Below, piece by piece: positions 11,751-39,152 of a stretch of 39,334 nucleotides of DNA (positions within the stretch are counted from its first letter, which is position 1; every line of letters begins with the position of its first letter). Made by a program: the position numbers and the translations under genes. The notes below the pieces were generated by a model, which was given only the letters and a program-made list of their open reading frames with translations, did not search any database and was not told where the DNA came from. The stretch comes from Desulfobacterales bacterium (GTDB lineage Bacteria; Desulfobacterota; Desulfobacteria; Desulfobacterales; 4be13): NCBI GenBank assembly GCA_029934695.1, contig JAOZLU010000003.1, forward strand, positions 1-39,334, in the 5' to 3' direction.

Positions 11751-11887
11751 CTGATTATAACGAATGCGGGAGCATGATTCGGGACATTCCCGCTCGTTGC
11801 GGGGCGGGATCCCTGCGACTGTGCGTTGCGAGGCGGAAGCCCTCGCAACGAGTGGACTTGAAGGCTCCCCACATCCGTTATAATCAG
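11751..11887. mobile_element. Complete MITE-like element (~137 bp) with terminal inverted repeats, between the kinase and regulator genes
   Basis: The left end 'ctgattataacgaatgc' (11751-11767) and the right end 'acatccgttataatcag' (11870-11887) are inverted repeats. The interior carries 'ccctgcgactgtgcg' and 'ggcggaagccctcgcaacgagtgg'. Confidence 0.7.
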
Positions 11888-11898
11888 TATATTTAATT

Positions 11899-14951: not shown

Positions 14952-15584
14952 ATGGCGGATTTTAATGCAATGCAGGAGTCTTTAGTTAGCTGTGACAAGG
15001 ATAAACTTGTGGGTCTGGTAAATGCAGCATTGGCAGAAGACATAAGTGCATCAGATATTTTAAACCAGGGATTGATCGCTGGTATGGATATTGTTGGTGA
15101 AAAAATGGAAAACGGTGACATGTTTATTCCCGAAGTACTTATGGCAGCCAAAGCAATGGGTGAATGTGTGATTATTTTAAAGCCACTGCTCGGTGAGGAT
15201 GAGTCTTCAAAAGGTGGTAATGTAGTTATTGGAACTGTCAAAGGTGATCTTCATGACATAGGTAAAAACCTTGTTGCAATGATGATGGAGAGTGCCGGTA
15301 TGACAGTTCATAATGTGGGAGTTGATATTGCACCTGAAGATTTTGTTACTCAGATAAAAGAAAAAAATGCCCGGATTGTCTGCCTGTCAGCTCTTTTGAC
15401 CACTACAATGCCCATGATGAAACAGACTGTTGATGCCATAGTTGAAGCAGGTTTGAGAGATCAGGTTAAAGTTATGGTGGGTGGTGCGCCTGTAACCCAG
15501 GCATTTGCCGATGAGATCGGAGCTGACGGCTTTGCAGCGGATGCAGGTTCTGCTGCCAGATTTGCTAAAACTCTTTTAGCATAA
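14952..15584 (+). CDS. Methyltransferase cognate corrinoid (cobalamin-binding) protein, MttC/MtbC-like
   Basis: The 210-aa protein has an N-terminal helical cap (B12-binding_2) and a B12-binding domain. The latter has the DxHxxG motif 'GDLHDIGKNLV' and the 'SALLTTTM' and 'VMVGGAP' motifs. A GGGAG RBS is present. Confidence 0.85.
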   Translation: MADFNAMQESLVSCDKDKLVGLVNAALAEDISASDILNQGLIAGMDIVGEKMENGDMFIPEVLMAAKAMGECVIILKPLLGEDESSKGGNVVIGTVKGDLHDIGKNLVAMMMESAGMTVHNVGVDIAPEDFVTQIKEKNARIVCLSALLTTTMPMMKQTVDAIVEAGLRDQVKVMVGGAPVTQAFADEIGADGFAADAGSAARFAKTLLA

Positions 15585-25977: not shown

Positions 25978-28900
25978 TCATCCGCCTTCACCCGCCTCTG
26001 CAACCTGAATCCACTCTCCCGGAATCCGGCCATTAATCGTGGCATCATACATTGTTTCAGCCGTGATCATGGGCAGGTAGAACTTGCCCAGATAACTCGC
26101 GTTCAGCAGAATCCGAAAGATTTTTGACTCGCCCTGTCTGATGTCAAAGTAAGTATAAACCCTGTCATCGCGAATATCCTGATAATCATAGTCCGATTCA
26201 GGGCCGAGATCAGGAGCATCAGAATCAGACATATCCATCCGCGTATTGCGGATTTCCCAGCCCGAGGGGAAAACATGAGACAGCGCAACTTCCTCGTAAT
26301 CTCCGCTATGACCGCTGTTCGTCACAGTTACCCGGACCACAAAATCTGTTCCCTGATCCAAGTTCGTGTGATTCAAAGGTTTTCCTTTAAGCGTAAAATA
26401 ATCCGCACTGAGTTTTAAGCCATTTTTCGCCGCGGTTTCAGTTCCCACAGCGGGAATCCCTTCCAGAATGACCCGGGGATAAAGCATTGTATCGCCGGTA
26501 TTCCTGACAACGATGATGCCAGAACTGCTGTCTCCCGCATCCAACTGCATTTGCACAAGAGGATGCTTGGAAGAGACCGCTACTTCCTCGCCGTTATTCC
26601 AGGAAAAAGCAAATTTCATCTCATCCGAGTTTCCTGAGATACCCGCATGGCGGGCCATGGCAACAAGGGCATAAGCCGTAGTCTGGGTACTCAGGGACTT
26701 GGTGCTGCCCAGCTCCGAGGAGATGGCCTTTGCAATGGGCATGGCATCTTCCGGCCGCCCCATGAGGCATAAGGATTCCAGGATCATGGCCTTATCCCGC
26801 AGATCAGAGCCATAAGTGTTTGAAAGCTCACGGTACGCGGATATGGAAATTTTCCTGTCCTGAATCAGGTCTTCAGCCGCTTCCGGCTGTCCAGCCAGAT
26901 GATAGGCCGAGGCAAGTCGCCATCGGGCCGCGGTGGGCAGATTCCGTTCTTCTCTCAGCCGGTTCATGGCCCCGAGTTCCGCGGCCCCGGAAAGTGCCAG
27001 CGTATAGAGACGATATGCCTGAATCAGTTCTGAACGCGTCCGATCCGGGCCCCATGAAATCGCCTTTTTGCGCTGATACGTCTTCCACGCGCTGATCACC
27101 CGCAGGGGGAGCAGATAGCCGGCTTTTTCAGCTTCGAGAAGGAAATGCCCCGCATAATTCGAGACCCAGTCTTGGGCCCTGGTCTCTCCGGGCCAGTAGG
27201 CAAATCCGCCGTCTGTTGTCTGAAATGTCCGCAACCGTCCGATTCCCGCTTTGACATTCTGCTGAATTTTATCCTGCTTATCTGGAGAAAGTTCAAGCAG
27301 TTTGTCCAGATAAAGTTGCGGAAACACGGCCGACGTGGTCTGTTCAACACAGCCATGGGGGTAGCGGATCAGAAAACTGAGCCGTTTCCCCAGATTGAGC
27401 GGCGGAATCCGCGCTGTCTCAAGGGTAATGGCGTTGCTTCCCGTCACACCAGGAAATTTTATCGCCTGCTTCCACATCTCACCTTTGGAAATCGCCGCTT
27501 CCACGACATCCGTAACCAGCCCGCCCGGCATTCTCACGTCGAGTTCAATATGCTGGCCGGCGTTCACATCTCCCGCTGCGGCCTTCACAGAAACCGACGC
27601 TATGCCGATATTCGAGCCTGCTTTAAGTCTGAAGGTGATGACATCATCTCCGGGTTCTGAAAAGGCAATGCTTTTGTGGGAAGAATCTGTGACAGAAACA
27701 GGGCCTTGAGTCTCTATGGTTATTGAGACCTCCTTCACCGTTTCATCCATGGCAAATACAGAAATCGGCATTTCCACTTCCTCATCCGGTCCGAGTACCC
27801 GGGGGAGCGTTGCCAGCACCATGAGCGGTTTACGGACAAACACCGCCTTTCTCTGGGAACCGAATGCTCGGTCCTGTCCCGCGACCACCATGACCCTGAC
27901 CGATCCCACATACTGGGGAATGTCAATGACATGGGTATTCTCCTCATCTTTCCCGAGTTTAAAAGGCCCGATAAATCGCACCATTGGCGGAAAGCGGTGG
28001 GCTTTTTTCTTTCCTTTGTTGATAAGGGCATCATCCCCTCCGATGGCCAGGAGTTGTTCAAGCGCGCCGCTGTAAGCCCCCGCGACCATATCGAAGATAT
28101 CCCATGTTCTCACGCCAAGTGCCTCTTTTTTATAAAAATGGGATCGAGGATCAGGTGTCTTAAAGCGCGTAAGTCCCAAAAGCCCCTCATCCACCACTGC
28201 GACAGTATAGGTCATGGGTTTCCCGTCTGCCTCGCTGATGATAATCTCGGCTTTCTCCTCCGGTATAAACGATTCCGGCACCCCGATCAAGGGCCTCAGG
28301 AGGGTTTCGGGATCATCAATCCTGATCGGAATCACCCCGTACATCCGAATAGGGAGATCGTTTTCTGTCTGCTGGTGGGGCTGGAGAAACGTGACATGCG
28401 CGTACACATTGGGCGACATCGCACTGGTGGCAGGGAATTCATAACGGGTATGTTCCTCGCCGGACGATTCTATCCATGCGGTCTGGATCACCCGTGTCCC
28501 GGACTCAATACTGACCAGCCCCCGGCCCTTTTTCCCGGTCGGAATACTCAGGCTCACTTTTTCGCCGACCTTATACGCGTCCTTGTCCGCGGAAAAACTC
28601 AGCACAGTCGCGCCGTCCGGAGAATCTTTCTGGGCCCGCCCTGCCCATCCGGGCCAGTCAATATAGAAGGCTTTGCCGGTGCAATGATCGCCGTTGGTAT
28701 CACACGCCCGGATCAGATACCGCCCCCATGATGGATATTTGATCTCAAACTGCCATTCACCTTTGCCGTTTATGATCGGAACCTTATCTGTCCGGATAGG
28801 CGTGTGGGAAGATGAACCCACATACTCGGCAAGGGATTCTTTTTCTTTCTCCCACCACCATCGCCATTTGATCTTGTACAATTTTATTTCGGCTTCGCCA

Positions 28901-31548
28901 TTTGTCACAGGTTCTCCGTGATTATCCAGCATCGCAATACTGACTGTGTGAGGTGTATCCGTGAGGAGCATCCCCCGCGCCTTGTCTCCTTTTGGGGTGC
29001 GAATGCCAAGATAGCGTTCATAAGGATAACAGGGTATGCTGAACCGATCCGAACTGAACGCGCCCCCCGGTTCAAACACGCGGGTTTTGAAATTTGCCGT
29101 CAGCATTCCCGGGGACACATTTTGGGGCCAGGCTTCTGATACGACCGTTGCCTTGCCTTTTCCATCCAAATTCCCCTCGAAGATGGTCTGCGTCTCCGGC
29201 TGATATGTCCTGACCGGATCATCAAATATGTATGCCTCATACTTGGGGAAATGGGTCCGGGCTGAGGTGAAGAGCAGCTCGACATCTGATTTCAGCCCTT
29301 TTGCGACAGCTCCGTGGAGCCACGTCGAGGAAAGTTCACCGGTGAGTTTCCCTTCGTACCAGGCATCACTTTCAAAATCAAGACCGATTTTCAGACGGTT
29401 CGGCATGATGGTTTCGATTTTCAGGATTTTCTCAAAGGTCGCACCGCCTGCCCTTACCCGCGCAGTCCAGTTTCCGGTGGGCGCGTCCGGGTCTGTTCCG
29501 GTTTTAAAACTGTAGAATCCGTTAAGCGATTCGTTCTTCTTTATGGTTTTGACAATCTGGTCCCTGGGATTCCGCAGTTCAAACAGAATCGGATGATTTT
29601 TCGGCAGTCTGTTCTCGTTGTCCAGCAGGATAAAGGTGAGATAAATCGGATCACCTGGCCGCCATACCCCGCGTTCACCATAGAGAAATCCCTTCAGCCC
29701 CTTGTCCACAGTATCTCCTGAAACATCAAAGTGACTGACGGACAGTGCTGAGCCGTCATCCAACTTCAGATATCCTGTCTGACCGCCATGTTGTGCCACG
29801 AGCAGAAAGGGCTTTCGCCTGGAGCGGAGAAGAGCCATTCCGCTGCTGTCAGTCGTTCCTGTGTTGAGTAACTGGCGCTGGTAGTCCATGAGGGTGATCA
29901 CCGTGTCCGGCAGGGGTTGAGCCGTTTTTATATCGGTGGCGACAACAGTGACTGAATCATCGCCTCCCTGTTTGGCAATGAGACCGATATCGGAAACGAG
30001 CACATTCCGTGAGACTGAGATGTTATGATCCTCATAAGCCCTGTAGTATCCGGGATGACATGGATTCTCACGCTCATCATAGTATTCCCACCAGTTGTGA
30101 TCTTCGTCCCCATCGTAGGTGTTCCAGTTGCTGTCCTGGGTCTCCTCATCCCAGTTGTTCTCCGCCAAGATTTCCTGTGCGTCCGGTTCTGATCCGTTTT
30201 CAGCATCCGGGCAGGGGTAAACAATATGACGTTGAACAAATGAGAGCTGAAGCCTGAAAAATCCCCCGGGATTATTCTGAACCAGCGGGGAGACATCAAG
30301 TCCGTATCGTGTCCACTGATTTTTCTTCTCCGGCGTGAACCCGAGGGAAACCGTCTTTTTCCAGATCACCCGGCCCACGCGTTTTATTTCATTGTCCTCT
30401 TCAAGGGTGCTGACCTGGAAAAACTGGGGGATGTTTTCCTCATAAACATGCATGGCCTCAACAATGATTTCCCGAAGGTTCACTGTTTCTATGGGAAGGG
30501 TCAGGCCGCGGGTGAAGGGAATAATGACGCGCTCACCCACAAAACGGGCCTGAGGTTTTATGTCTTCAAAACTGACTGTCATGCTTTTTGGTGTGCCAAG
30601 ACGCTGGCCCAGGATATTCCGGATGCCAAGTTCCGCGGTGACTGTCACTTCCTCTGCCCACGGTGACGAGCTGTAAACCCGCACGATACTGCCGTCAATG
30701 GTGAATCTGAGAGGGCGTTCCTCATCACTGACCCGGATCAGACCGTTCAAATCCTGATCTTTCTCCAGAGGATCAGTAAATCGGATTTCAATATACTGCT
30801 GTTCTCCGTGCATGGCCCTGACATCTGTGACTTGGAAGGGGCCGATGGGAGGCACTGCGATATTTCTCTTTCCCTGCTTATTCGCACCAATGGCGGTTCC
30901 GTCCCATCGGAGAATGACTTCGGACGGCTCATCAAGGCGCAGAATATTGCTGATAATGTATGAATGGTTTCGTCTGTCCTTTGAGTGGGACCAGCGGATA
31001 TTCAGCCCTTTCCCATTCTGCCCGGCTCTGAGCAGTTTCATGATCTTCGAGCTGTCCTCCGCGTCTGCAGTGACGAGTTTTCCGGTCAGCTGAACCTCTT
31101 TCAGATTGATCCGGCTGGCTGCCTGAAGTCCGTCAACTGTGATTTCAAAGGATTGCCTGATAACGCCGAATCTGAACTCAAAGGTTTCTGATGCTTGGGG
31201 AAGACTGGTGATTTCTGACCAGTTCAGGAAGGCAAGGTAGTTCTGACCTGCCGGCAGTTTGTCTTTGGGCCAGAACTCAAGCGTTCTTTGGTTCGCCCAT
31301 GCGGCCGCGCCCTTTATCTCCGGCCTGAATGTCAGCGGAGAGTCCTTCAACGGTGCATTGAGCCTGTCCGAGCCGATCATGTTCTCTGCAAACCGGACCT
31401 GAATCATGCTCTCCCGTGAAATCAGGCCCGATGTGTGAGCAGAGATGACGGAAGGCTGTTTTTCAATGTCAAGCGACTCCGCTTTTGAAGCGAAAAGCCC
31501 AAGCATCAGAACGCACATCATTATGACGATAACGGTTTTACTTTTCAT
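25978..31548 (-). CDS. Bacterial alpha-2-macroglobulin family protein (YfhM-like) with an intact thioester motif
   Basis: The protein is 1856 aa with the signal peptide 'VLMLGLFASKAES'. It has repeated macroglobulin-type beta-domains. The thioester site is 'RYPHGCVEQTTSAVFPQ', with the CVEQ codons at plus-strand 27340-27351. An AAGGAG RBS is present. Confidence 0.85.
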   Translation of the reverse strand: MKSKTVIVIMMCVLMLGLFASKAESLDIEKQPSVISAHTSGLISRESMIQVRFAENMIGSDRLNAPLKDSPLTFRPEIKGAAAWANQRTLEFWPKDKLPAGQNYLAFLNWSEITSLPQASETFEFRFGVIRQSFEITVDGLQAASRINLKEVQLTGKLVTADAEDSSKIMKLLRAGQNGKGLNIRWSHSKDRRNHSYIISNILRLDEPSEVILRWDGTAIGANKQGKRNIAVPPIGPFQVTDVRAMHGEQQYIEIRFTDPLEKDQDLNGLIRVSDEERPLRFTIDGSIVRVYSSSPWAEEVTVTAELGIRNILGQRLGTPKSMTVSFEDIKPQARFVGERVIIPFTRGLTLPIETVNLREIIVEAMHVYEENIPQFFQVSTLEEDNEIKRVGRVIWKKTVSLGFTPEKKNQWTRYGLDVSPLVQNNPGGFFRLQLSFVQRHIVYPCPDAENGSEPDAQEILAENNWDEETQDSNWNTYDGDEDHNWWEYYDERENPCHPGYYRAYEDHNISVSRNVLVSDIGLIAKQGGDDSVTVVATDIKTAQPLPDTVITLMDYQRQLLNTGTTDSSGMALLRSRRKPFLLVAQHGGQTGYLKLDDGSALSVSHFDVSGDTVDKGLKGFLYGERGVWRPGDPIYLTFILLDNENRLPKNHPILFELRNPRDQIVKTIKKNESLNGFYSFKTGTDPDAPTGNWTARVRAGGATFEKILKIETIMPNRLKIGLDFESDAWYEGKLTGELSSTWLHGAVAKGLKSDVELLFTSARTHFPKYEAYIFDDPVRTYQPETQTIFEGNLDGKGKATVVSEAWPQNVSPGMLTANFKTRVFEPGGAFSSDRFSIPCYPYERYLGIRTPKGDKARGMLLTDTPHTVSIAMLDNHGEPVTNGEAEIKLYKIKWRWWWEKEKESLAEYVGSSSHTPIRTDKVPIINGKGEWQFEIKYPSWGRYLIRACDTNGDHCTGKAFYIDWPGWAGRAQKDSPDGATVLSFSADKDAYKVGEKVSLSIPTGKKGRGLVSIESGTRVIQTAWIESSGEEHTRYEFPATSAMSPNVYAHVTFLQPHQQTENDLPIRMYGVIPIRIDDPETLLRPLIGVPESFIPEEKAEIIISEADGKPMTYTVAVVDEGLLGLTRFKTPDPRSHFYKKEALGVRTWDIFDMVAGAYSGALEQLLAIGGDDALINKGKKKAHRFPPMVRFIGPFKLGKDEENTHVIDIPQYVGSVRVMVVAGQDRAFGSQRKAVFVRKPLMVLATLPRVLGPDEEVEMPISVFAMDETVKEVSITIETQGPVSVTDSSHKSIAFSEPGDDVITFRLKAGSNIGIASVSVKAAAGDVNAGQHIELDVRMPGGLVTDVVEAAISKGEMWKQAIKFPGVTGSNAITLETARIPPLNLGKRLSFLIRYPHGCVEQTTSAVFPQLYLDKLLELSPDKQDKIQQNVKAGIGRLRTFQTTDGGFAYWPGETRAQDWVSNYAGHFLLEAEKAGYLLPLRVISAWKTYQRKKAISWGPDRTRSELIQAYRLYTLALSGAAELGAMNRLREERNLPTAARWRLASAYHLAGQPEAAEDLIQDRKISISAYRELSNTYGSDLRDKAMILESLCLMGRPEDAMPIAKAISSELGSTKSLSTQTTAYALVAMARHAGISGNSDEMKFAFSWNNGEEVAVSSKHPLVQMQLDAGDSSSGIIVVRNTGDTMLYPRVILEGIPAVGTETAAKNGLKLSADYFTLKGKPLNHTNLDQGTDFVVRVTVTNSGHSGDYEEVALSHVFPSGWEIRNTRMDMSDSDAPDLGPESDYDYQDIRDDRVYTYFDIRQGESKIFRILLNASYLGKFYLPMITAETMYDATINGRIPGEWIQVAEAGEGG

Positions 31549-31620: not shown

Positions 31621-31645
31621 CGTGACGAGGCTCTGCCTCGTCACG
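31621..31645. repeat. GC-rich hairpin between the channel gene and the A2M gene
   Basis: 'cgtgacgaggc tct gcctcgtcacg' forms an 11-bp perfect stem. No U-tract follows on the coding strand. Confidence 0.6.
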
Positions 31646-31654
31646 GCGGGTGAG

Positions 31655-33856
31655 CTAACTTATGTAAATATATACAAATATCATGCTTGCTAAAACAATG
31701 CAGGGATGAATAATTATCCCTGCACGATTAAAAAACCTTTCTTTTTTTCCAGCCCCTTTTCTGTAAAAAATATAAACAGATATGGATATTGAAGCAGCAA
31801 GGATGGCCAGTATATATATTGTAAAAAAAGCATATTCAATGACGCATAAATATTTCGTCGGGAATTCTGACAAAAACATCATACGATAAGACACAGTTGA
31901 GATGAGTACCGCCATAAAGATCATTGCACGAAAGCCGAAACGGTCCGGCGGAATAAAGTATATGACATACAAAGTGATTATCATTATGATGACAGGCAAA
32001 AAATTTTTGAAAACAAAACTCAGCCCTTTCCTCTCAATCCGGACGGCAGCATTGATCCGGGAATAACTTATAGCGTCTTGTGAATCAGAAAGGAGCGGAT
32101 CTCCGAGACTGGTATCAAGGATAATATCCTGATAAAGCGAGGCATCTCTGACAGACCAGCCAGTAGCGGCATCAAGCCGTATTTTTTTTGCAACCCCAAC
32201 ACCCGACACCTCTGTAACCAAAATCAGTTTGTCTCTGGTCAGCCTGGAATGACGAAGTTCAATTTTCAGGACATGCTGATCAAACGGATACATCCGGAGA
32301 TCAGGATCATTTCTGAAGTCAGCAGTGACATGATATACACGGGCGGTGATATTGCCTCTTTTTGTATCCGAGATGGGCTGACCCAGTGTTACCGGCTTCA
32401 CAGCATTCAGAAACGTAATCTCCCTGTCATCAAAATCCCCTTCATAAAAGAACCAGAGATAAAAATCCAAGGTGCAGACTGAGTTTCTCACATTTAAATT
32501 TCTTATTTCATTAATACGTATCCCCACATAAATCACACGGGTTTTACGCATCGCCTGTCCGTCAATCTCTATGAGTTCACCGGACAGCAACTCCTTCAGG
32601 GGATTGTCAATGGTGCTGATGTTTGTCAGATGGTATTGCGAAAATAAGGGACGGAGGTTCTCATTTTCATAAATTCCTATGGCGGGCGGTCTGGGGGCAT
32701 CTCCGTTTTTATCGAAATAAATGGCTCCGGTCACGCCTCTGACAGCACTTTCATAGTCATAAAAAGTTGTCAGGGCTTCCCGGACTTTTCTCCGAGCCTC
32801 CCGTATGTTTTCTCTCCCCTCAGTTTCAGCATTTTTGATGGCTTCAACCGCAACATAGGCAGCATCATAAGCGCATGCGGCAGTCAATGAGGGTTCTTCT
32901 CCATATTCCTTTAAAAATTTCTGTCTGAATGTGTAGGCTTTTTCATTACCGATATCCGCAAGAAACGGAGAAGCCGCATAAATGCCGTCTGAAAGATAAC
33001 TGACATATCCCCCTTCTGGAGAATATTCTCTGAGATTGTTCAAAAATGATCCGCCTGAGAGTGAAGTGGCTCCAATGACAGAATAAGCTTTATTCCGATA
33101 TTTTATTGATATGATAATTTTTGCAGCTTCAGGGCTGTATGTTGATGTTGCAAAAAAGAGTATTCCCGGATCTTCCGTGGCTTTCAGTTCTTCTGCAATT
33201 CGTGCGAGCTGCTCTTCCGAATCTCTGCCCCCTGCTGCGTCAATACTCCATTTCTTTATAATTCTGATACCCAGCTTCCGGGCGGCCTTTTCAAAAGCTC
33301 CGGCAAGGGAAAGACCATAGGCGTTATTGACGAATATGATGCTTGCCGAGGTCTTTTTTAAAATTTTGCTGATATAATTTGCGACAAAATCCGCATAAAG
33401 GGCGTTATTGGGAACCGTTCTGAAATACCACTCATTCCCTGATGTGACAGGTCCGGTCGTGGCATACGGGGTAATGGCAGGTATGCCGGTCCTTTTATAA
33501 ACCTTTCCCGCATCAATGGAGACAGTGCTTCTGTAATGCCCAATGACAAGCAGAATCTTCTCCTCTTCCGCAACTTGGTACGCCACTTCCATAGCGGTGC
33601 GTTTGTCATTTTTATCGTCGTAAGTCAGCAGTTTTATTTTCCTGCCCCTGATACCGCCCTCTTTATTTATTTCATCAAGGCACATAAGAATCCCTTTCAC
33701 ACCGTCTTCTCCGCTTATCTTGTCAGTGCCGCTCATCGGTCCCATCAGGGCGATATGGATCGTATCTTTGTCAGAAAAAGATATCGAAAAGAACAGGAGA
33801 ATAAGAATCAGACCTGTCGCAAGGATTGCCAGAGATGTCAACAAGATTTTTTTCAT
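31655..33856 (-). CDS. Fusion protein: N-terminal anchor/signal, LIVBP-type (type I) periplasmic binding domain, and pentameric ligand-gated ion channel (pLGIC/Cys-loop family) with extracellular and 4-TM pore domains. Paralogue B.
   Basis: The PBP1 part has 'IHIALMGPMSGTDKISGEDGVKG...INKEGGIRGRKIKLLTYDDKNDKRTA...LLVIGHYRSTVS...GIPAITPYAT...WYFRTVPNN'. The pLGIC part is colinear with GLIC as I recall it. 'VIYVGIRINEIRNLNVRNSVCTLDFYLWFFY' corresponds to beta1-beta2. The Pro-loop 'LRMYPFDQHVLKIELRHS' compares with GLIC 'FRRYPFDSQTLHIYL'. Pre-M1/M1 is 'RIERKGLSFVFKNFLPVIIMIITLYVIYFIPP', M2 is 'RAMIFMAVLISTVSYRMMFLSEFP', M3 is 'YLCVIEYAFFTIYILAILAAS' and M4 is 'IIIHPCIVLASMIFVYIYI'. The stop codon is TAG. 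Confidence 0.8.
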   Translation of the reverse strand: MKKILLTSLAILATGLILILLFFSISFSDKDTIHIALMGPMSGTDKISGEDGVKGILMCLDEINKEGGIRGRKIKLLTYDDKNDKRTAMEVAYQVAEEEKILLVIGHYRSTVSIDAGKVYKRTGIPAITPYATTGPVTSGNEWYFRTVPNNALYADFVANYISKILKKTSASIIFVNNAYGLSLAGAFEKAARKLGIRIIKKWSIDAAGGRDSEEQLARIAEELKATEDPGILFFATSTYSPEAAKIIISIKYRNKAYSVIGATSLSGGSFLNNLREYSPEGGYVSYLSDGIYAASPFLADIGNEKAYTFRQKFLKEYGEEPSLTAACAYDAAYVAVEAIKNAETEGRENIREARRKVREALTTFYDYESAVRGVTGAIYFDKNGDAPRPPAIGIYENENLRPLFSQYHLTNISTIDNPLKELLSGELIEIDGQAMRKTRVIYVGIRINEIRNLNVRNSVCTLDFYLWFFYEGDFDDREITFLNAVKPVTLGQPISDTKRGNITARVYHVTADFRNDPDLRMYPFDQHVLKIELRHSRLTRDKLILVTEVSGVGVAKKIRLDAATGWSVRDASLYQDIILDTSLGDPLLSDSQDAISYSRINAAVRIERKGLSFVFKNFLPVIIMIITLYVIYFIPPDRFGFRAMIFMAVLISTVSYRMMFLSEFPTKYLCVIEYAFFTIYILAILAASISISVYIFYRKGAGKKERFFNRAGIIIHPCIVLASMIFVYIYIS

Positions 33857-33877
33857 AATGACGAATTAATGATGAAT

Positions 33878-33947
33878 TGATTATAACGGATTTAGAGGAG
33901 GCCACGGTCCCTGAGCTTGCCGGTCCCTGAGCTTGTCGAAGGGGGTG
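33878..33947. repeat. Intergenic repeat patch: one MITE-type end plus a tandem 'ggtccctgagcttg' motif
   Basis: 'ttgattataacggattt' (33878-33894) resembles the MITE TIR. It is followed by 'ggtccctgagcttgccggtccctgagcttgtcgaaggg'. Confidence 0.5.
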
Positions 33948-36143
33948 CTATGACATGCAGAGATACATAATTCCCAAGCCTCCTCCTGAAACAACAAAAG
34001 GATAGACAATCCTCGCTGACCACTCAATAAGCCTTACTTTTTTAAAGTCGCCCTTCCTGTAAAGAAGATAGCCTGATACGGATGTAAACAGTGCTATGAC
34101 AGCCAGTATATAGACAGCAAAAAAGGCATATTCGATGACGCATAAATATTCCAGAGGCAATTTTGATGCAAACATTATATGACAATATGCATTTGCGATG
34201 AATACCGCCATAAAGATCGTTACACGAAAGCCGAACCGGTCCGGCCGGATAAAATATATGGCATACAGAACAATTATCATTATGATGACAGGCAAAAAAT
34301 TTCTGAAAGCAAAATTCAGCCCTTTTCTCTCAATCCGGATGGCAGCATTGATCCGGGAATAACTCATCGTATCTTGTAAACCAGAAACCCCGAGCCCCGT
34401 ATTGCTGATGATATCCTGATAAAATGAGGTATCTGTGACAATCCATCCTGTAGCGGCATCAGGCTGTATTGTTACGAGGCTTTTCTTTTCAGCAAGCTCA
34501 GGCGTATTCGACACATCCGTAACAAGAATCAGTTTCTCTCTTGTCAGCCTGGAGTGGCGAAGCTTCACTTTCAGGGTATGCTGCTCAAAGGGATACATCC
34601 GAAAATCAGAATCACTTTTAAAATCAGCGGTAACCCGATATACACGGGTGACAACATTATTTCTCTTTATATCCGAGATGGGCTGACCCAGTGTTATCGG
34701 TTTCACAGCATTTACAAAAATAATCTCCCTACCATCAAAATCTCCTTTGTAGCGGAACCAGAGATAAAAGTCCAAGGTGGCTACAGAATTTTTCACATTT
34801 AAATTTTTTATTTCATTAATATCCATCCCCACATTTATCACACGGGTTTTACGCATTGCCTGTCCGTCAATCTCTATGAGTTCTCCAGCCAGCGATTCCT
34901 CCAGGAGATTATCAATACCTCTGATGTCCGTCAGATGATATTGTGAGAATAGCGGATGGAGTGTCTGATTTTCATAGATTCCCATGGCGGGCGGTCTGAT
35001 GACATCTCCATTTGCATTAAAATAAATGGAGCCAGTCACACCTTTGACAGCATTTTCATAGTCATAAAAACTTGTCAGGGCTCTCCTGACTTTTCTCCTA
35101 TCCTCCCGTATATGCCCTCTTCCCTCAGTTCCAGCTTTTTTAATGGCTTCAACCGCAACATAAGCGGCATCATAAGCGCAGACAGCAGTTACTGAAGGTT
35201 CTTCTCCATATTTTTCTAAAAATTTCTGCCTGAATTTATATGTTTTTTCATTACCGATATCCGCGAGAAAGGGAGAAGCTGCATAAATGGGGACTGAAAG
35301 ATTTTCTTCCAGTGAATATTTTTTGAGATTTTCTGAAAACGCTGTGCCTGAGAGCGAATTTCCGATGACAGGATAATTTATATCCCAATGTTCCAATGTT
35401 GCAATAATTTCTGCAGATTCATAGCTGTACGTTGCCAAAAAGAGTATTCCGACATCTTCCGTTTCTTTCAGTTCTTGTACAATTCGTATGATCTGCTCTT
35501 CCGAATCCCTATCCTTTATTGTTGCGTCAACACCCCATTTCTTTATAATTCTTACACCCAGTTTCCGGGAGGTCTTTTCAAAATTCCCGGCAAGGGGAAT
35601 CCCGTAGTCGTCATTGACGAATATGATGCCTGCCGAGGTCTTTTTTAAAACTTCGCTGCTATAGTTTGCGATAAAATGTGCATAAAGGGCATTATTGGGA
35701 ACGGTTCTGAAATACCACTCATTCCCTGATGTGACGGATTCTGCCGTGGCAAGTGAAGTAATGGCAGGTATGCCGGCCTTCTTATAAATTTTTCCCGCAT
35801 CAATGGATATAGTGCTGTAATAATGCCCGATGACAAGCAACATCTTGCCCTCTTCCGCAACTTGGTGCGCCGCTTTCACGGCGGCGCGTTTGTCGCTCTT
35901 ATCGTCGTAAGTCAGCAGTTTTATTTTCCTGCCCCTGATACCGCCCGCCTTATTTATTTCATCAAGGCACATAAGAATCCCTTCCACACATTCCTCTCCG
36001 CTTAACTTGTTAGGGCCGCTCATCGGGCCCATCATGGCGATATGGATCGCATCTTTGTCAGACGAGGATATCGGGAAGAACAGGAAAATAAAAATCAGAC
36101 CTGTTGCAAGGATTCCCACGGATATTAACAATATTTTTTTCAT
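33948..36143 (-). CDS. PBP1 (LIVBP-type) - pLGIC fusion protein, paralogue A
   Basis: The architecture and motifs match 31655-33856: 'IHIAMMGPMSGPNKLSGEECVEG', 'FRMYPFEQHTLKVKLRHS' and 'RIERKGLNFAFRNFLPVIIMIIVLYAIYFIRP'. M2 has diverged ('RVTIFMAVFIANAYCHIMFASKLP'). I place the start at the ATG at 36141-36143 (MKKILLISVG), by analogy with the paralogue. The ORF extends to 36179. The stop codon is TAG. Confidence 0.8.
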   Translation of the reverse strand: MKKILLISVGILATGLIFIFLFFPISSSDKDAIHIAMMGPMSGPNKLSGEECVEGILMCLDEINKAGGIRGRKIKLLTYDDKSDKRAAVKAAHQVAEEGKMLLVIGHYYSTISIDAGKIYKKAGIPAITSLATAESVTSGNEWYFRTVPNNALYAHFIANYSSEVLKKTSAGIIFVNDDYGIPLAGNFEKTSRKLGVRIIKKWGVDATIKDRDSEEQIIRIVQELKETEDVGILFLATYSYESAEIIATLEHWDINYPVIGNSLSGTAFSENLKKYSLEENLSVPIYAASPFLADIGNEKTYKFRQKFLEKYGEEPSVTAVCAYDAAYVAVEAIKKAGTEGRGHIREDRRKVRRALTSFYDYENAVKGVTGSIYFNANGDVIRPPAMGIYENQTLHPLFSQYHLTDIRGIDNLLEESLAGELIEIDGQAMRKTRVINVGMDINEIKNLNVKNSVATLDFYLWFRYKGDFDGREIIFVNAVKPITLGQPISDIKRNNVVTRVYRVTADFKSDSDFRMYPFEQHTLKVKLRHSRLTREKLILVTDVSNTPELAEKKSLVTIQPDAATGWIVTDTSFYQDIISNTGLGVSGLQDTMSYSRINAAIRIERKGLNFAFRNFLPVIIMIIVLYAIYFIRPDRFGFRVTIFMAVFIANAYCHIMFASKLPLEYLCVIEYAFFAVYILAVIALFTSVSGYLLYRKGDFKKVRLIEWSARIVYPFVVSGGGLGIMYLCMS

Positions 36144-36208
36144 AATGATGAATGATACCCGATTCAGGAAAATGTACATTCCGGGTATTTTATTTTTTTT
36201 GAAATCCC

Positions 36209-39058
36209 TTATTCTGCAAGCCGCCAGTTATGAATATGCTGGCCTCCCATCGCCATGTCGTACCATTCTTTTACCCGGGGCTTTACCAGGCAAGGGGAAG
36301 TTTCAAAATAAATCGGCACAACCACGGCCTCTTCTTCGATCAGAATCTTTTCCGCACGTTTATAGAGTTTCTTCCGTTCCCCTGGGTCCGTGATTTCCCG
36401 AGCCCTGTCTGTCAACTGGGCAAAAATCACATTTTTCCACCCACTTCTGTTGGGAGAAAAATAAGGATGAAAAAGTTTGTAAAGCCAGTTGTCTGCGTCA
36501 GGATAGTCACCGCACTGTTCATATTGGAATATATGAGACATATTCCCCTGGGCAATAAATTTCTCATAGTCAGTTTTTTCTTTTCCATCAAGTTTGACGG
36601 AGATATTCAAATAATGTTTTAAAAAGGTCTGAAACGCTTGGGCAATTTCTGAACGGGCTTCGGATATCTCATACATGAAGGTAATCTCCGGGAATTTCTC
36701 ACCATCAGGATAGCCAGCTTCTGCCAGCCATTTTTTCGCCTGATCAGGATCAAAATTTATGCCCATACCTTCACGGGGAGCGACTGAACCGAAAGCAGGA
36801 GGAGGCGTAAACGTTGTCGCAGGTCTGCCGTATCCTTTCAGTGCTGTTCTGACGAGAAGTTCACGATCAATGGCCGCTGAAATGGCTTTCCGGACAAGCA
36901 GATTATCAACAGGCGGATGCCCGGTATCAAAGGCATAAGCATAAGTGCAGAGTTTCGGAGTGTCTGAATATTCCCTGCTTAACATTGGTTCTGTTTTGAC
37001 ACGGGGAAGTTCTGCCGACGGAAGCGGGAGATAAGCACCTCCCATTATATCCAGTTCGTTATCCTCATACATTGCCAGCCCCACAGAACTTTTCTGTATG
37101 ATATGATAGCGCACCTCTCGGACAGAGATTTTTTCAGCGTCGAAATAACTTGGATTTCTCCGTAGGATCATCCGTCTGTTCTTATCCCAGACAACCAGCA
37201 CATAAGGGCCGTTGGTCTGAATATATTCGGGGTCGGTCCATTTTTCTCCGTATTTTTTGACGAGCTTTTGCGGCAGAGGATAATAAACTGGCAAACCGGC
37301 CATGACAGGAAAATAGGCGACAGGATGTTCAAGCGTAAATTCCACAGTAAAATCATCAGTCGCATGCACACCGAGCAGTTCCAAGGCATCCTCTGTTTGA
37401 AAGGTTTTCATTGTTTTCTCAGCAGTCGGTTCTTTGACAGCATCAATCGTTTCTTCAGTTTCAGCTATCACTTGGGCAATATCTTCGGGTGCCAGTGTTT
37501 CGGTTTGTAAAATTTCTTTTATTTTACCAGTATGTATTGCCTCGGCATTCTTCAGAATGTACAACAGGTCGGCGCGGGGAGATTTTGTCTCCGGGCTGAT
37601 ATTGCGCCGGATGGCCCATACAACATCGTGGGCAGTTACTGGCGAACCATCCGTCCAAACCACATCTTTCCGCAGTTGAAACTGGTAAATCCTGCCGTCT
37701 TCATCAACAGTCCATTTTTCTGCCAGTTCGGGCACCGCTTCATACGTTTTGGGATCAAGATTGGTCAGCCCCAGAAAAAGCTGGCCGACGACCTCAACAG
37801 CATTCCTGTCCAGAGCCAAACCAGGATCAATTGCAGGGATATCTTTCACAGGAAGCCTTAACGTAACGCTTTCTATGAGATCAAACCGGTCTTCCTCCTT
37901 TTTCAAGTGAGCTTCCAGAAATTCAAAGTCTCCGCCTTGCATCTCTTTAAAATGAATTGATTGCCCGATAACATCGCCGTTGGTGTCAAACGAGTAATGT
38001 CCGGGAATCCCGTGCCAGTTCTCAAGGGAGCGCAATACAGTGCTTACGTTGATCGGCACAGAGGAGCCGCTTTTCTCTATGGCATGAGCCAACACCCGGA
38101 TAGCGTCATAAGCCAAGGCTGACGATGCATCAGCAGAAACTCCGAATTCTGCTTTAAAATTTCTGATAAACTTCTGGGTGCGGCCGCTGGATCTTCTCGG
38201 ATCAAAAACAGTGGAAACGATGGTTCCGTCAGCAGCTTTTCCTGCAATAACAGAAAGTTGCGGTGAATCAAGACTGTCGCCTCCCAATATCGGACTGGTT
38301 ACGCCCATGGCTCGCAGTTGTCTGACAATATCACCGGCAGAGGGAAGCTTTCCCCCTAAAAATACAGCATCAAAATCATATTTTTTGACCACATCCGACA
38401 GGAGGAGCGGGATATCATCCTGCCAATCAAAATATGACTTCACGGCAACAATCTCAAGCCCCAGATCATCAGCGCTTTTTGCAAAGATTTCCGCCAGTCG
38501 TCTGCCCGGGGAGTCCCTGTCATAAAGGACCAGTATTTTGTGATATTCTTTGTGATATGCAAACTTGGCCAGTTCCCGTCCGCTTTTCTCACTGGAGGAA
38601 ATATTTCTGAAGGTGAAGATGCCGCCGTACTGCGTCAACGCGGGGTCCATGGCACCCGGGGAAATAAAAATTATCCCATTTCTCTCATAAGTGATGGATG
38701 CGGGAATTGCAGTCTTCCCGTGAAGATGACCCACCACAGCAACCACATCAGGATTTTTAGCCAACTTTTCTGATATCTCCAGCGCTTTTGCAGGTAATCC
38801 TTCGTCATCGTAAAAAATGGGGCTGAGTTTTCTTCCCTGAACACCTCTCTCCTGATTCAATTCTTGTATCGCCATCCTCACGCCTTCAAAAAAAAGGCCC
38901 GGCAAATCAGAGGAGGCAACGATTCCGATAACAATATCTCCTTTTGATTCATCCGAGTCTGCGGCCATTTTCGCCCGTTCAGATACCGGATCGGATTCGC
39001 AGGACAAAACAAACAATACGGAGATGAACAGGATAAAATATTTCTTCAGGGTTTGCAT
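36209..39058 (-). CDS. Lipoprotein fusing a LIVBP-type (type I) binding domain to a family-5 (OppA/DppA-like) solute-binding domain
   Basis: The lipobox is 'ISVLFVLS-C-ESD'. The PBP1 part has 'IVIGIVASSD...INQERGVQGRKLSPIFYDDEG...VVAVVGHLHGKTAIPAS...GIIFISPGA...FTFRN'. The SBP5 part has 'DPGLALDRNAVEVVGQLFLGLTNLD...LAEKWTVDEDGRIYQFQLRKDVVWTDGSPVTAHDVVWA'. I place the start at the ATG at 39056-39058 (MQTLKKYF). A GTG at 39091 is the alternative. Confidence 0.75.
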   Translation of the reverse strand: MQTLKKYFILFISVLFVLSCESDPVSERAKMAADSDESKGDIVIGIVASSDLPGLFFEGVRMAIQELNQERGVQGRKLSPIFYDDEGLPAKALEISEKLAKNPDVVAVVGHLHGKTAIPASITYERNGIIFISPGAMDPALTQYGGIFTFRNISSSEKSGRELAKFAYHKEYHKILVLYDRDSPGRRLAEIFAKSADDLGLEIVAVKSYFDWQDDIPLLLSDVVKKYDFDAVFLGGKLPSAGDIVRQLRAMGVTSPILGGDSLDSPQLSVIAGKAADGTIVSTVFDPRRSSGRTQKFIRNFKAEFGVSADASSALAYDAIRVLAHAIEKSGSSVPINVSTVLRSLENWHGIPGHYSFDTNGDVIGQSIHFKEMQGGDFEFLEAHLKKEEDRFDLIESVTLRLPVKDIPAIDPGLALDRNAVEVVGQLFLGLTNLDPKTYEAVPELAEKWTVDEDGRIYQFQLRKDVVWTDGSPVTAHDVVWAIRRNISPETKSPRADLLYILKNAEAIHTGKIKEILQTETLAPEDIAQVIAETEETIDAVKEPTAEKTMKTFQTEDALELLGVHATDDFTVEFTLEHPVAYFPVMAGLPVYYPLPQKLVKKYGEKWTDPEYIQTNGPYVLVVWDKNRRMILRRNPSYFDAEKISVREVRYHIIQKSSVGLAMYEDNELDIMGGAYLPLPSAELPRVKTEPMLSREYSDTPKLCTYAYAFDTGHPPVDNLLVRKAISAAIDRELLVRTALKGYGRPATTFTPPPAFGSVAPREGMGINFDPDQAKKWLAEAGYPDGEKFPEITFMYEISEARSEIAQAFQTFLKHYLNISVKLDGKEKTDYEKFIAQGNMSHIFQYEQCGDYPDADNWLYKLFHPYFSPNRSGWKNVIFAQLTDRAREITDPGERKKLYKRAEKILIEEEAVVVPIYFETSPCLVKPRVKEWYDMAMGGQHIHNWRLAE

Positions 39059-39152
39059 AATTTTGGGGTTGTCAGAGTATTGAATAAGCACGTTATTTTT
39101 TCTCCGGACTCTCCGGATTCTGTCGGACGGAGTTTGCCCTGCCGGACCCTGC

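What the first reader, a model, noticed from the sequence alone, without database searches (positions are those of the whole stretch)
31655..36143. Two tandem genes fuse a LIVBP-type periplasmic binding domain to a pentameric ligand-gated ion channel
- Each ~735-aa protein has an N-terminal anchor and a complete type-I (Leu/Ile/Val-binding-protein-like) domain.
- A full pLGIC follows: a beta-sandwich extracellular domain with the Pro-loop signature 'YPFDQH/YPFEQH', then M1-M3, a very short M3-M4 loop and M4.
- Computational surveys of prokaryotic Cys-loop channels have noted such N-terminal add-ons. To my knowledge no PBP-pLGIC has been characterised functionally or structurally.
- The design puts the domain used as the ligand or modulator module of eukaryotic iGluR, mGluR and GABA-B receptors on the other major ligand-gated channel scaffold.
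- The two paralogues differ most in the pore-lining M2 helix (LISTVSYRMMF against FIANAYCHIMF). This suggests either a heteropentamer or channels with different conductance properties.
Basis: partly seen in the sequence, partly recalled or inferred. Interest (0 to 1): 0.8.

Follow-up and report, generated by a model that had tools for sequence, protein, structure and literature searches.

The report
Binding-protein-fused pentameric channel gene pair
Two neighbouring genes of an uncultured sulfate-reducer-type bacterium each join a nutrient-sensing "Venus flytrap" domain to a complete bacterial relative of the nicotinic/GABA receptor channel; this design was predicted from genomes in 2005 but has never been tested, and here it sits in a conserved four-gene cassette.

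Summary
On the minus strand, 33948..36143 (731 aa) and 31655..33856 (733 aa) each encode an N-terminal hydrophobic helix, a type-I (LIVBP-like) periplasmic binding domain and a complete but divergent Pro-loop pLGIC.

- **Binding domain:** Pfam Peripla_BP_6 E~1e-39.
- **Channel:** Pfam's channel models miss it. A family profile hits ELIC/GLIC at E 8e-18, and a domain model matches GLIC and GABA-A over its full length (Foldseek E 5e-17).
- **Novelty:** The architecture is not new. Tasneem et al. (2005) described PBP-I–pLGIC fusions, and at least 150 50%-identity clusters share this layout. I found no report of one being characterised.

What I add:
- A conserved cassette: SPFH/Band_7, then a PBP-I+SBP5 lipoprotein, then one or two PBP-pLGIC genes.
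- The same PBP+ECD module is fused to MscS/bCNG channels in other genomes. There the Pro-loop and pre-M1 Arg are no longer conserved.
- The family is seen mainly in large or filamentous bacteria.

M2 is more diverged than average, but M4 differs most. Heteromer formation, ligand and ion selectivity remain untested.

The parts
33948..36143 (-). geneA: PBP-I–pLGIC subunit, 731 aa. TM0 helix ~2-26, PBP ~31-404, ECD ~412-607, M1-M4 ~609-731.
   Evidence: ORF. Start fixed by the invariant MKK of the family. Pfam Peripla_BP_6 at 1e-39. My pbp/ecd/tmd HMMs give 2e-179, 1e-76 and 8e-48. Its M2 keeps the family consensus A10' N11' H15'. Against an ortholog, its TMD shows 0 nonsynonymous and 4 synonymous changes.
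31655..33856 (-). geneB: PBP-I–pLGIC subunit, 733 aa. TM0 helix 2-26, PBP 33-411, helix 419-425, beta-sandwich ECD 428-609, M1 612-634, M2 640-664, M3 672-699, M4 703-732.
   Evidence: ORF. AF2 full-length model with pLDDT 84.9 and pTM 0.79. PDB profile and fold matches.
32624..33763 (-). geneB type-I (LIVBP-like) periplasmic binding domain, residues ~32-411.
   Evidence: Pfam PF13458 at E 2.5e-39 and PF01094 at 1.2e-22. Closest solved structures are Leu/Ile/Val-, Leu- and GABA/Ala-binding proteins.
32027..32602 (-). geneB pLGIC extracellular beta-sandwich domain, residues ~419-610.
   Evidence: Foldseek full-length alignment to GLIC and GABA-A. Collinear beta1-beta2 and Pro-loop-to-beta10 matches to ELIC.
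32273..32290 (-). geneB Pro-loop YPFDQH, residues 523-528.
   Evidence: P524 is invariant in 25/25 and present in 99% of 72 pLGIC-type relatives. It is lost in the MscS-fused relatives.
34578..34595 (-). geneA Pro-loop YPFEQH, residues 517-522.
31859..31933 (-). geneB M2 with flanks (F-1' R0' ... P23'). Inferred pore positions: M2' A6' I9' S13' M16' S20'.
   Evidence: Prime numbering is anchored on R0' and P23' through the HMMER alignments to GLIC and GABA-A. Residue table.
34155..34229 (-). geneA M2 with flanks. Inferred pore positions: T2' A6' I9' Y13' I16' S20'.
36209..39091 (-). Upstream gene of the same cassette: 960-aa fusion of a PBP-I domain and a family-5 (OppA/DppA-like) solute-binding domain, with a lipobox-like FVLSC at residues 27-31.
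   Evidence: Pfam SBP_bac_5 at 2e-82 plus Peripla_BP_6 at 1.6e-36. NCBIfam best match is OppA. The same gene sits directly upstream of PBP-pLGIC genes in 16 other loci, and a stand-alone SBP5 does so in 16 more.
31622..31644 (-). 10-bp GC-rich hairpin (GTGACGAGGC-aga-GCCTCGTCAC) 11 nt after the geneB stop. No T-run follows. Possible end of the transcription unit.
   Evidence: Read from the sequence. The simple terminator scan did not call it.

Best explanation
Each gene encodes one subunit of a periplasm-facing ligand-gated ion channel.

Shown by sequence, profile and fold comparison:
- An N-terminal hydrophobic helix (signal-anchor or signal peptide).
- A LIVBP-type Venus-flytrap domain.
- After a short linker helix, a complete Pro-loop pLGIC: a beta-sandwich ECD, the Pro-loop Y-P-F-D/E, a pre-M1 Arg, an M1 Pro, an M2 with basic 0', Ile 9' and Pro 23', and a very short M3-M4 turn.
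- The two genes are the distal part of a conserved cassette: SPFH/Band_7, then a PBP-I+SBP5 lipoprotein, then PBP-pLGIC, then PBP-pLGIC.

Inferred:
- The subunits form pentamers.
- A small periplasmic molecule is captured in the PBP cleft. The closest solved relatives bind amino acids.
- Clamshell closure is passed to the attached ECD, so the fused PBP+ECD pair acts as one sensor module.
- The canonical ECD-to-TMD coupling elements then open a pore with a hydrophobic 9' gate and change membrane potential or ion content.
- The upstream OppA-like lipoprotein probably supplies or senses a second (peptide-like) ligand.
- The SPFH protein probably scaffolds or regulates the channel in the membrane.

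Ion selectivity cannot be read from the sequence. There is no -1' Glu and no -2' Pro/-1' Ala motif. The -1' position is hydrophobic and 0' is Arg.
For: Identity:
- Pfam PBP hits.
- Family profile against the PDB at E 8.4e-18 to ELIC/GLIC, with 227 hits at E <= 0.01; all 60 listed are pLGICs.
- Foldseek match of the domain model to GLIC, GABA-A and GluCl over its full length.
- Full-length model with pLDDT 84.9 and pTM 0.79 and the expected order of elements.
- Invariant P524 (Pro-loop) and P621 (M1).
- Family M2: R0' in 50/72, L/I/V at 9' in 58/72, L16' in 40/72, P23' in 49/72.

Functional coupling: among ECD columns, the four Pro-loop residues Y523-P524-F525-D526, the pre-M1 R609 and D447 are well conserved only where the ECD is joined to a pLGIC TMD (n=72). 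They are not conserved where the same PBP+ECD module is joined to an MscS channel (n=23). One other column (463) is conserved in both groups with a different residue.

Selection: orthologs from a second assembly give dN/dS 0.37 (geneA) and 0.43 (geneB), and both ORFs are intact in 10-13 assemblies.

The PBP as sensor:
- PBP and ECD travel together onto two unrelated channel scaffolds.
- There are no ABC permease or ATPase genes in the cassette.
- The closest solved PBPs bind Leu/Ile/Val, Leu, or GABA/Ala.

Cassette:
- SPFH plus PBP-I+SBP5 stand upstream in 16 loci and a stand-alone SBP5 in 16 more, out of 57 pLGIC-type loci.
- In other lineages a type-II solute-binding domain (SBP_bac_1) is fused to the periplasmic C-terminus of the channel.
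Against: - No experiment exists for any member. Pentamer formation, conduction and ligand are all inferred.
- Pfam's pLGIC models do not reach threshold on either protein.
- The ECD keeps conserved aromatic and His positions that align near ELIC loops B and C (H536, Y598). A classical inter-subunit agonist site is therefore not excluded.
- I did not rigorously map the PBP cleft residues for alpha-amino acids.
- The charge-selectivity motifs are absent.
- geneB departs from the family M2 consensus (T11', R15'), and its TMD shows 13 nonsynonymous against 4 synonymous changes versus its ortholog. This could mean relaxation rather than function.
Confidence: 0.7

Rival explanations
1. Classical orthosteric gating. 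The agonist binds at the inter-subunit pocket of the pLGIC ECD. The fused PBP, and the operon-encoded SBP5 protein, only concentrate, hand over or allosterically modulate. This is the model proposed by Tasneem et al. 2005.
For: The proposal is in PMC549065. ECD positions aligned near ELIC loops B and C are conserved (H536 81-87%, Y598 81-96%, W567). In DeCLIC the NTD modulates kinetics rather than acting as the agonist site (PMC12664993).
Against: The same PBP+ECD module is attached to MscS-type channels, which are heptameric in solved MscS structures. The pentameric inter-subunit pocket geometry would not be preserved there, yet those ECD residues stay conserved. This argues that they serve the PBP-ECD unit rather than a pentamer-specific pocket. 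This is inference only.
Confidence: 0.25
2. Obligate heteropentamer. geneA and geneB co-assemble, as eukaryotic alpha and beta subunits do, and the M2 and M4 differences set conductance or assembly order.
For: - Tandem channel genes occur in 20 of 57 pLGIC-type loci and in nearly all complete Desulfobacterales cassettes.
- Most pairs are old (24-47% identity) yet retained side by side.
- The two window copies differ at 2', 13' and 16'.
- Their evolution is asymmetric: the geneA TMD is frozen and the geneB TMD is changing.
Against: - The window pair is a younger, lineage-specific duplication. It is 65-69% identical with dS 0.40, and both copies fall in one clade of my NJ tree.
- Beggiatoaceae and many other lineages carry a single gene, so homomers must be functional in the family.
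- No multimer prediction was possible with the tools available.
Confidence: 0.3
3. Not a working channel. The pLGIC part is a degenerate membrane and oligomerisation scaffold that displays five binding domains, for example for an uptake system or a signalling partner. This would fit the database label 'ABC transporter substrate-binding protein'.
For: Public annotations call the relatives substrate-binding proteins. Pfam channel models fail at threshold. There is no recognisable charge-selectivity motif, and -1' is a bulky hydrophobic residue (Phe in both genes).
Against: - No permease or ATPase genes are in the cassette in any of the loci examined.
- The gating hardware is conserved specifically in TMD-bearing forms: Pro-loop P 99%, pre-M1 R 94%, M1 Pro invariant.
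- Position 9' is hydrophobic (L/I/V) in 58/72.
- The geneA TMD is under strong constraint.
Confidence: 0.07

Closest known systems
PBP-I–pLGIC ('ART-LGIC') fusions predicted by Tasneem, Iyer, Jakobsson & Aravind 2005 in Magnetospirillum magnetotacticum and Bradyrhizobium japonicum (PMC549065)
   Same: Same domain order: an N-terminal type-I periplasmic binding domain, then the pLGIC ECD, then a 4-TM channel. Both are known only from sequence. That paper also noted solute-binding-protein genes in operons with bacterial pLGICs.
   Different: - This locus is from a Desulfobacterota-type MAG and belongs to a divergent subfamily that Pfam's pLGIC models miss.
- The operon partner here is a family-5 (OppA-like) SBP fused to another PBP-I domain, plus an SPFH protein. 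It is not a PBP-II protein.
- The genes come in tandem pairs.
- I did not test orthology with the alphaproteobacterial proteins.
DeCLIC (Desulfofustis-related pLGIC with an N-terminal domain)
   Same: A bacterial Pro-loop pLGIC from a Desulfobacterota-type organism with a large extra periplasmic N-terminal domain that makes up about half the mass. It is the only NTD-bearing pLGIC studied so far (PMC12664993, PMC9897478).
   Different: [quoted passage not shown] It is not a Venus-flytrap PBP. DeCLIC is calcium- and pH-modulated, and no small-molecule clamshell is involved.
GLIC and ELIC (plain bacterial pLGICs)
   Same: Best sequence and fold matches for residues ~425-733: a beta-sandwich ECD, Pro-loop, M1-M4 and a short M3-M4 turn.
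   Different: Sequence identity is about 14% in the Foldseek alignments to GLIC. GLIC and ELIC have no N-terminal PBP and no TM0 helix. The window proteins have no -2'/-1' acidic residue, which GLIC has at E-2' (my own knowledge). They instead have conserved N11' and H15' in the family M2.
Eukaryotic iGluR (NMDA/AMPA) amino-terminal domains and mGluR/GABA-B Venus-flytrap domains
   Same: These work alike in principle: a LIVBP-type clamshell placed N-terminal to a membrane signalling module. Foldseek also retrieves mGluR ligand-binding domains with the full-length model.
   Different: The channel scaffold is unrelated (tetrameric pore-loop channel or 7-TM receptor against a pentameric 4-TM channel). 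Eukaryotic PBP-I domains act as dimers, which five-fold symmetry cannot satisfy internally.
[quoted passage not shown]
   Same: Relatives of the window proteins carry the same PBP+ECD module in front of an MscS core with or without a cNMP_binding domain.
   Different: The window genes themselves have a pLGIC TMD, not an MscS core. The 2026 MscS review I read does not mention PBP- or pLGIC-ECD-bearing MscS channels (PMC13591265).

Membership tests
pLGIC (Cys-loop/Pro-loop receptor superfamily) | Beta-sandwich ECD of ~200 aa followed by a four-helix TMD, with the fold matching solved pLGICs over the full length | tested here: met
   The AF2 model of geneB 425-733 matches GLIC 4hfb at E 4.7e-17 and TM 0.63-0.69 over ~330 aligned columns. 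All top 50 hits are pLGICs.
pLGIC (Cys-loop/Pro-loop receptor superfamily) | Significant sequence similarity to known members | tested here: met
   Single sequence against the PDB: E 2.9e-5, with only pLGICs among the 60 hits listed. Family profile: E 8.4e-18. NCBIfam LGIC_1: E 4.6e-5.
pLGIC (Cys-loop/Pro-loop receptor superfamily) | Pfam PF02931 / PF02932 at gathering threshold | tested here: not met
   geneA scores 15.3 bits on PF02931 (cut-off 26). geneB has no hit. A distant family member (L060) passes PF02932 at 30.0 against 28.1. This reflects model sensitivity, not an absent domain.
pLGIC (Cys-loop/Pro-loop receptor superfamily) | Pro-loop with conserved proline (F/Y-P-F-D) | tested here: met
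   YPFDQH and YPFEQH. P524 is invariant in 25/25 and present in 99% of 72.
pLGIC (Cys-loop/Pro-loop receptor superfamily) | Pre-M1 Arg and M1 Pro | tested here: met
   R609 is present in 94% of pLGIC-type relatives. P621 is invariant.
pLGIC (Cys-loop/Pro-loop receptor superfamily) | M2 with basic 0', hydrophobic 9' gate and Pro 23' at canonical spacing | tested here: met
   Both genes have R0', I9' and P23'. Family frequencies: R0' 50/72; 9' L39, I12, V7.
pLGIC (Cys-loop/Pro-loop receptor superfamily) | Recognisable charge-selectivity motif (-1' Glu for cations, or -2' Pro/-1' Ala for anions) | tested here: not met
   Both genes have G-2' F-1' R0'. In the family, -1' is I/L/V/F/T. Selectivity is therefore unknown.
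pLGIC (Cys-loop/Pro-loop receptor superfamily) | Pentameric assembly and ligand-gated ion conduction | not testable with these tools
Type-I periplasmic binding protein (LIVBP-like, Peripla_BP_6/ANF_receptor) | Pfam models above gathering threshold and a two-lobe alpha/beta fold | tested here: met
   PF13458 scores 136-138 bits (cut-off 31.7) and PF01094 scores 77-81 bits. TM to LivJ/LivK/4n0q is 0.87-0.90 per target.
Type-I periplasmic binding protein (LIVBP-like, Peripla_BP_6/ANF_receptor) | Alpha-amino-acid-binding cleft residues | tested here: inconclusive
   The closest solved relatives bind Leu/Ile/Val, Leu, or GABA/Ala. The nearly invariant S113 in G-H-x-x-S and A132 in the A-T stretch resemble the LivJ lobe-I contacts as I recall them. 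I made no residue-level mapping to a ligand complex.
Type-I periplasmic binding protein (LIVBP-like, Peripla_BP_6/ANF_receptor) | Works as the soluble receptor of an ABC importer (adjacent permease and ATPase genes) | tested here: not met
   No permease or ATPase genes lie in the cassette, here or in related loci. The only ABC system in the window is ~22 kb away and has its own SBP5.
PBP-I–pLGIC fusion class of Tasneem et al. 2005 | N-terminal PBP-I domain fused to the core ECD plus 4-TM module | tested here: met
   compared with the description in PMC549065.
DeCLIC-type multidomain pLGIC | NTD made of two lobes (NTD1 and NTD2) with Ca2+ sites | tested here: not met
   The NTD here is an alpha/beta PBP. 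The DeCLIC description comes from PMC12664993.

The most novel reading that the evidence does not exclude
The PBP+ECD pair may be a portable periplasmic sensor module that evolution has plugged into two structurally unrelated channels: a pentameric pLGIC pore and an MscS/bCNG pore (heptameric in solved MscS structures).

In the pLGIC version it would work as part of a dedicated multi-protein chemo-electrical signalling complex, made of an SPFH scaffold, a PBP-I+SBP5 lipoprotein and two channel paralogues forming heteromers. This complex appears characteristic of large, filamentous or multicellular bacteria: Desulfonema, cable bacteria, Beggiatoaceae, Thiomargarita, Ca. Magnetoglobus and filamentous cyanobacteria and Chloroflexota.
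Probability: 0.25. Interest if true: 0.8.

Novelty: new member of a known kind. Interest (0 to 1): 0.55.

Why it matters
pLGICs are the scaffold of nicotinic, GABA-A, glycine and 5-HT3 receptors. How extra domains tune them is studied in a single bacterial model, DeCLIC.

A PBP-fused pLGIC would put a well-understood, engineerable ligand clamshell on that scaffold. That is the module used by iGluR, mGluR and GABA-B receptors and by most biosensors. It would give a direct test of how a Venus-flytrap movement can be coupled to a pentameric pore.

This locus adds practical handles:
- A cultured relative with a complete genome carries the same cassette (Desulfonema magnum).
- Two conserved accessory partners are candidates for co-expression.
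- There is a natural domain-swap control: the same sensor on an MscS channel, with the coupling loop degenerated.

The architecture itself has been known from genomes for twenty years and is widespread in metagenomes. The value lies in it being a well-defined experimental target, not a new kind of protein.

Tried and rejected
- **C-terminal-only homolog search:** The search for homologous proteins with the C-terminal 341 aa alone returned nothing, a limit of the word index. The full-length query worked.
- **Pfam and NCBIfam:** on their own they would have left the channel assignment unproven.
- **Full-length Foldseek:** the top 50 hits for the full-length model were all PBPs or mGluRs. I needed a separate model of residues 425-733 to see the pLGIC match.
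- **D447 as a coupling residue:** I considered that the pLGIC-specific D447 might be the beta1-beta2 loop Asp that I recall from the GLIC D32-R192-D122 coupling triad. The ELIC alignment places it mid-beta1 instead, and geneB has Arg there. I rejected the idea.
- **Downstream genes as cassette members:** I asked whether the alpha-2-macroglobulin and TonB-receptor genes belong to the cassette. In Desulfonema magnum (L008) the downstream neighbours are DUF481 and an HTH protein instead. Other loci were not scanned for these two genes.
- **ABC peptide transporter at 4625-9946:** I considered it as a partner. It lies ~22 kb away, next to the MttB, corrinoid and tRNA-Pyl genes, so I rejected it.
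- **Positive selection on M2:** dN/dS is 1.85 but rests on only 25 codons. I do not consider it meaningful.
- **Ancient conserved gene order for the window pair:** my NJ tree puts both copies in one clade, so this pair is a younger duplication.
- **Hu et al. 2020 (DeCLIC):** the paper is not held in the library.
Full report
**What is in the sequence**

The stretch 31655-36143 holds two same-strand (minus) ORFs.
- geneA is 33948..36179. The family alignment has an invariant M-K-K start, which places the real start at 36143, giving 731 aa.
- geneB is 31655..33856, 733 aa.
- They are 69% identical, separated by 91 nt, and share near-identical start contexts.
- Both are recovered intact in 10 and 13 near-identical cluster members from independent assemblies. 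One is named 'hypothetical protein DRI57_09100 [Deltaproteobacteria bacterium]'.
- The window is part of NCBI assembly GCA_029935875.1, contig JAPOGR010000043.1.

**N-terminal half**

Pfam gives Peripla_BP_6 at E 2.5e-39 and 1e-39, plus ANF_receptor, over residues ~32-388. The full-length AF2 model has pLDDT 84.9 and pTM 0.79. It shows a helix at 2-26 and a two-lobe alpha/beta domain at 33-411. That domain superposes on LivJ, LivK, a Desulfitobacterium Leu-binding protein and Atu2422, with TM 0.85-0.90 per target. mGluR ligand-binding domains appear further down the list. By sequence, the closest solved proteins are the same amino-acid binders.

**C-terminal half**

Pfam's channel models fail. 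Neur_chan_LBD scores 15.3 bits in geneA against a cut-off of 26, and geneB has no hit. NCBIfam LGIC_1 is weak, at E 4.6e-5. Other evidence is clear:
- phmmer of the last 331 residues against the PDB listed only pLGICs among the 60 hits shown (best 2.9e-5).
- A profile of 20 family members reaches E 8.4e-18 on ELIC and GLIC. It aligns from the Pro-loop to the end of M4, with a collinear weak beta1-beta2 match.
- An AF2 model of residues 425-733 (pLDDT 81.8) aligns over ~330 columns to GLIC, GABA-A beta3 and GluCl, at E 4.7e-17 and TM 0.63-0.69. All top 50 hits are pLGICs.
- The hallmarks are present: Y-P-F-D/E Pro-loop, pre-M1 Arg, M1 Pro, four helices (612-634, 640-664, 672-699, 703-732) and an M3-M4 turn of only about 3 residues.

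**The pore**

I anchored prime numbering on R0' and P23', using the HMMER alignments to GLIC and a GABA-A chimera.

| Position | geneB | geneA |
|---|---|---|
| -2' | G | G |
| -1' | F | F |
| 0' | R | R |
| 2' | M | T |
| 6' | A | A |
| 9' | I | I |
| 13' | S | Y |
| 16' | M | I |
| 20' | S | S |

Across 72 pLGIC-type relatives, 0' is R in 50, 9' is L/I/V in 58, 16' is L in 40 and 15' is H in 52. Position -1' is hydrophobic, and neither the cation (-1' Glu) nor the anion (-2' Pro/-1' Ala) motif is present. Selectivity is therefore open.

geneA keeps the family consensus A10'-N11'-H15'. geneB has S10'-T11'-R15'.

**Paralogue divergence**

| Region | Identity between geneA and geneB |
|---|---|
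| PBP | 71% |
| ECD | 70% |
| M1 | 79% |
| M2 | 52% |
| M3 | 61% |
| M4 | 21% |

M2 is more diverged than average, but M4 is the most diverged. Between the paralogues dS is 0.40 and dN/dS is 0.45.

I also compared each gene with its ortholog in a second assembly (L081, same cassette).
- geneA: dN/dS 0.37, with 0 nonsynonymous and 4 synonymous changes in the TMD.
- geneB: dN/dS 0.43, with 13 nonsynonymous and 4 synonymous changes in the TMD.

Counts are small. They suggest geneA is the constrained copy and geneB is the one changing.

**Relatives and context**

The full-length search found ~730-aa proteins with the same layout at 32-53% identity. They come from Desulfobacteraceae and Desulfobacterales MAGs, Ca. 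Magnetoglobus and others. They are annotated as substrate-binding proteins, and none carries a precomputed Pfam pLGIC domain.

A profile search of 1.84 billion 50%-identity representatives gave 680 hits at E <= 1e-30. Most of the best 150 are 700-800 aa, and in most of them the match begins near residue 420-440. This is a sizeable family with this architecture.

A scan of one genome per species returned 79 loci. I annotated their ORFs with HMMs cut from the family alignment. Of 57 pLGIC-type loci:
- 16 have SPFH/Band_7, then a PBP-I+SBP5 fusion (~910-960 aa), directly upstream. These are Desulfobacterales including the complete Desulfonema magnum genome, one Bacteroidota MAG, and Ca. Electrothrix, where the pair is divergently oriented.
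- 16 have a stand-alone SBP5 gene upstream, mostly Beggiatoaceae and other Thiotrichales.
- 20 have two adjacent channel genes.

In the window, the 960-aa fusion is 36209..39091 (Pfam SBP_bac_5 2e-82, Peripla_BP_6 1.6e-36). It has a lipobox-like FVLSC motif. The SPFH gene lies just beyond the window end. In other lineages an SBP_bac_1 domain is fused to the periplasmic C-terminus of the channel. Three independent kinds of linkage therefore tie a second solute-binding module to these channels. The downstream alpha-2-macroglobulin and TonB-receptor genes have no counterpart in the Desulfonema magnum locus L008, the only other locus whose downstream genes I examined.

**A natural domain swap**

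Proteins of ~930-1170 aa align with geneB from residue 3 to 609 (37% identity). The alignment ends exactly at the pre-M1 boundary. They then continue as an MscS-type channel, often with a cNMP-binding domain, that is, a bCNG-type channel.

I compared 72 TMD-bearing and 23 MscS-bearing ECDs. Six columns are well conserved only in the pLGIC-type forms: Y523, P524 (99% against 22% for the commonest residue), F525 and D526, R609 (94% against 39%), and D447. One further column (463) is conserved in both groups with a different residue. The Pro-loop and pre-M1 positions are the elements known to couple the ECD to the TMD in pLGICs (established knowledge of the family). This is comparative evidence that the pLGIC-type proteins are working, gated channels. 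It also indicates that PBP+ECD behaves as one sensor unit.

**Mechanism**

Shown: the domain composition, topology-compatible order, conserved coupling and gate residues, purifying selection, and the conserved cassette.

Inferred:
- The subunits assemble as pentamers.
- Ligand capture in the PBP cleft drives or modulates gating through the ECD. An amino-acid-like ligand is the best guess from the nearest structures.
- The OppA-like lipoprotein contributes a second input.
- The SPFH protein scaffolds the channel.

If the N-terminal helix is not cleaved, only ~6 residues tether PBP lobe I to the membrane, while the PBP C-terminus enters the apex of the ECD. The clamshell would then stand beside the ECD rather than on top of it. 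This is inference; I had no access to model coordinates.

Rivals are classical orthosteric gating with the PBP as an accessory (the Tasneem model), an obligate A/B heteropentamer, and a non-conducting scaffold.

**Comparison with what is known**

Tasneem et al. 2005 already described PBP-I–pLGIC fusions and SBP genes in operons with bacterial pLGICs. A 2025 paper states that DeCLIC is the only pLGIC whose NTD has been characterised, and its NTD is not a PBP. My searches found no functional or structural study of a PBP-pLGIC. A 2026 review of MscS-like channels does not mention PBP- or ECD-bearing members.

The finding is a real, correctly interpreted example of a known but uncharacterised class. 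I found no report of the cassette or of the MscS swap in the searches listed above.

**Verdict**

Observation confirmed and interpretation supported. Novelty: new member of a known kind. Interest is moderate (0.55). It is a good experimental target with useful new context, but not a new type of protein.

Noticed in passing
Related loci L044, L048-L051, L053-L059, L062, L066, L067, L070, L073-L075; proteins P0026-P0055: The same PBP-I plus pLGIC-type ECD module is fused to an MscS-type channel, often with a C-terminal cNMP-binding domain (bCNG-like). The alignment with geneB ends exactly at pre-M1. In these proteins the Pro-loop proline and the pre-M1 Arg are not conserved, and no SBP5 gene is adjacent. 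I found no mention of this in the MscS review I read.
   Followed up: partly
L027:6564-10280, L060:6702-10316 (also L024, L029, L078): Long family members (~1205-1241 aa) carry an SBP_bac_1/SBP_bac_8 solute-binding domain after M4, on the periplasmic C-terminus of the channel. The L060 protein passes Pfam's threshold for Neur_chan_memb.
   Followed up: partly
Just outside the window (would be ~39500-40423); L001:3434-4357, L008:2720-3592, L017:3073-3945 and 14 more loci: An SPFH/Band_7 (stomatin-like) gene always precedes the PBP-I+SBP5 fusion gene. This makes a conserved four-gene cassette with the channel genes.
   Followed up: yes
Record titles of L002-L080: The family is found mostly in large, filamentous or multicellular bacteria: Desulfonema magnum, Ca. 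Electrothrix, Para- and Halobeggiatoa, Thiomargarita, Thioploca, Marithrix, Pseudanabaena and Oscillatoriales, Chloroflexota and Ca. Magnetoglobus. The pattern resembles that reported for the actin-like Bbp protein (PMC10580974). I did not test it statistically, and shared habitat or gene transfer could explain it.
   Followed up: partly
window 1052..2539 (-) and 838..910 (-): A trimethylamine-methyltransferase (MttB) homolog has an in-frame TAG at 1558..1556. It is followed by a tRNA-Pyl gene (anticodon CTA). This is a pyrrolysine-decoding system. A second MttB homolog without a stop codon (3157..4605) and a corrinoid protein (14952..15584) lie nearby.
   Followed up: partly
window 25978..31548 (-) and 23380..25329 (-): An 1856-aa bacterial alpha-2-macroglobulin with an intact CVEQ thioester motif lies directly downstream of geneB. 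The next gene is a TonB-dependent receptor. Neither has a counterpart in the one related locus whose downstream genes I examined (L008).
   Followed up: partly
window 33905..33935 (-): A 15-nt direct repeat, CAAGCTCAGGGACCG, occurs twice, separated by one base, in the spacer between geneA and geneB.
   Followed up: no
window 10337..14433 (-): A sensor kinase with a periplasmic SBP_bac_3 domain plus GAF, together with a sigma-54-dependent response regulator. This is another example in the window of a solute-binding domain used as a signalling input.
   Followed up: no
L010:2845-6750 (Desulfonema magnum): In a second D. magnum locus, two PBP-pLGIC genes flank a 1302-aa MscS-family protein (MS_channel_1st and MS_channel_2nd domains).
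   Followed up: no
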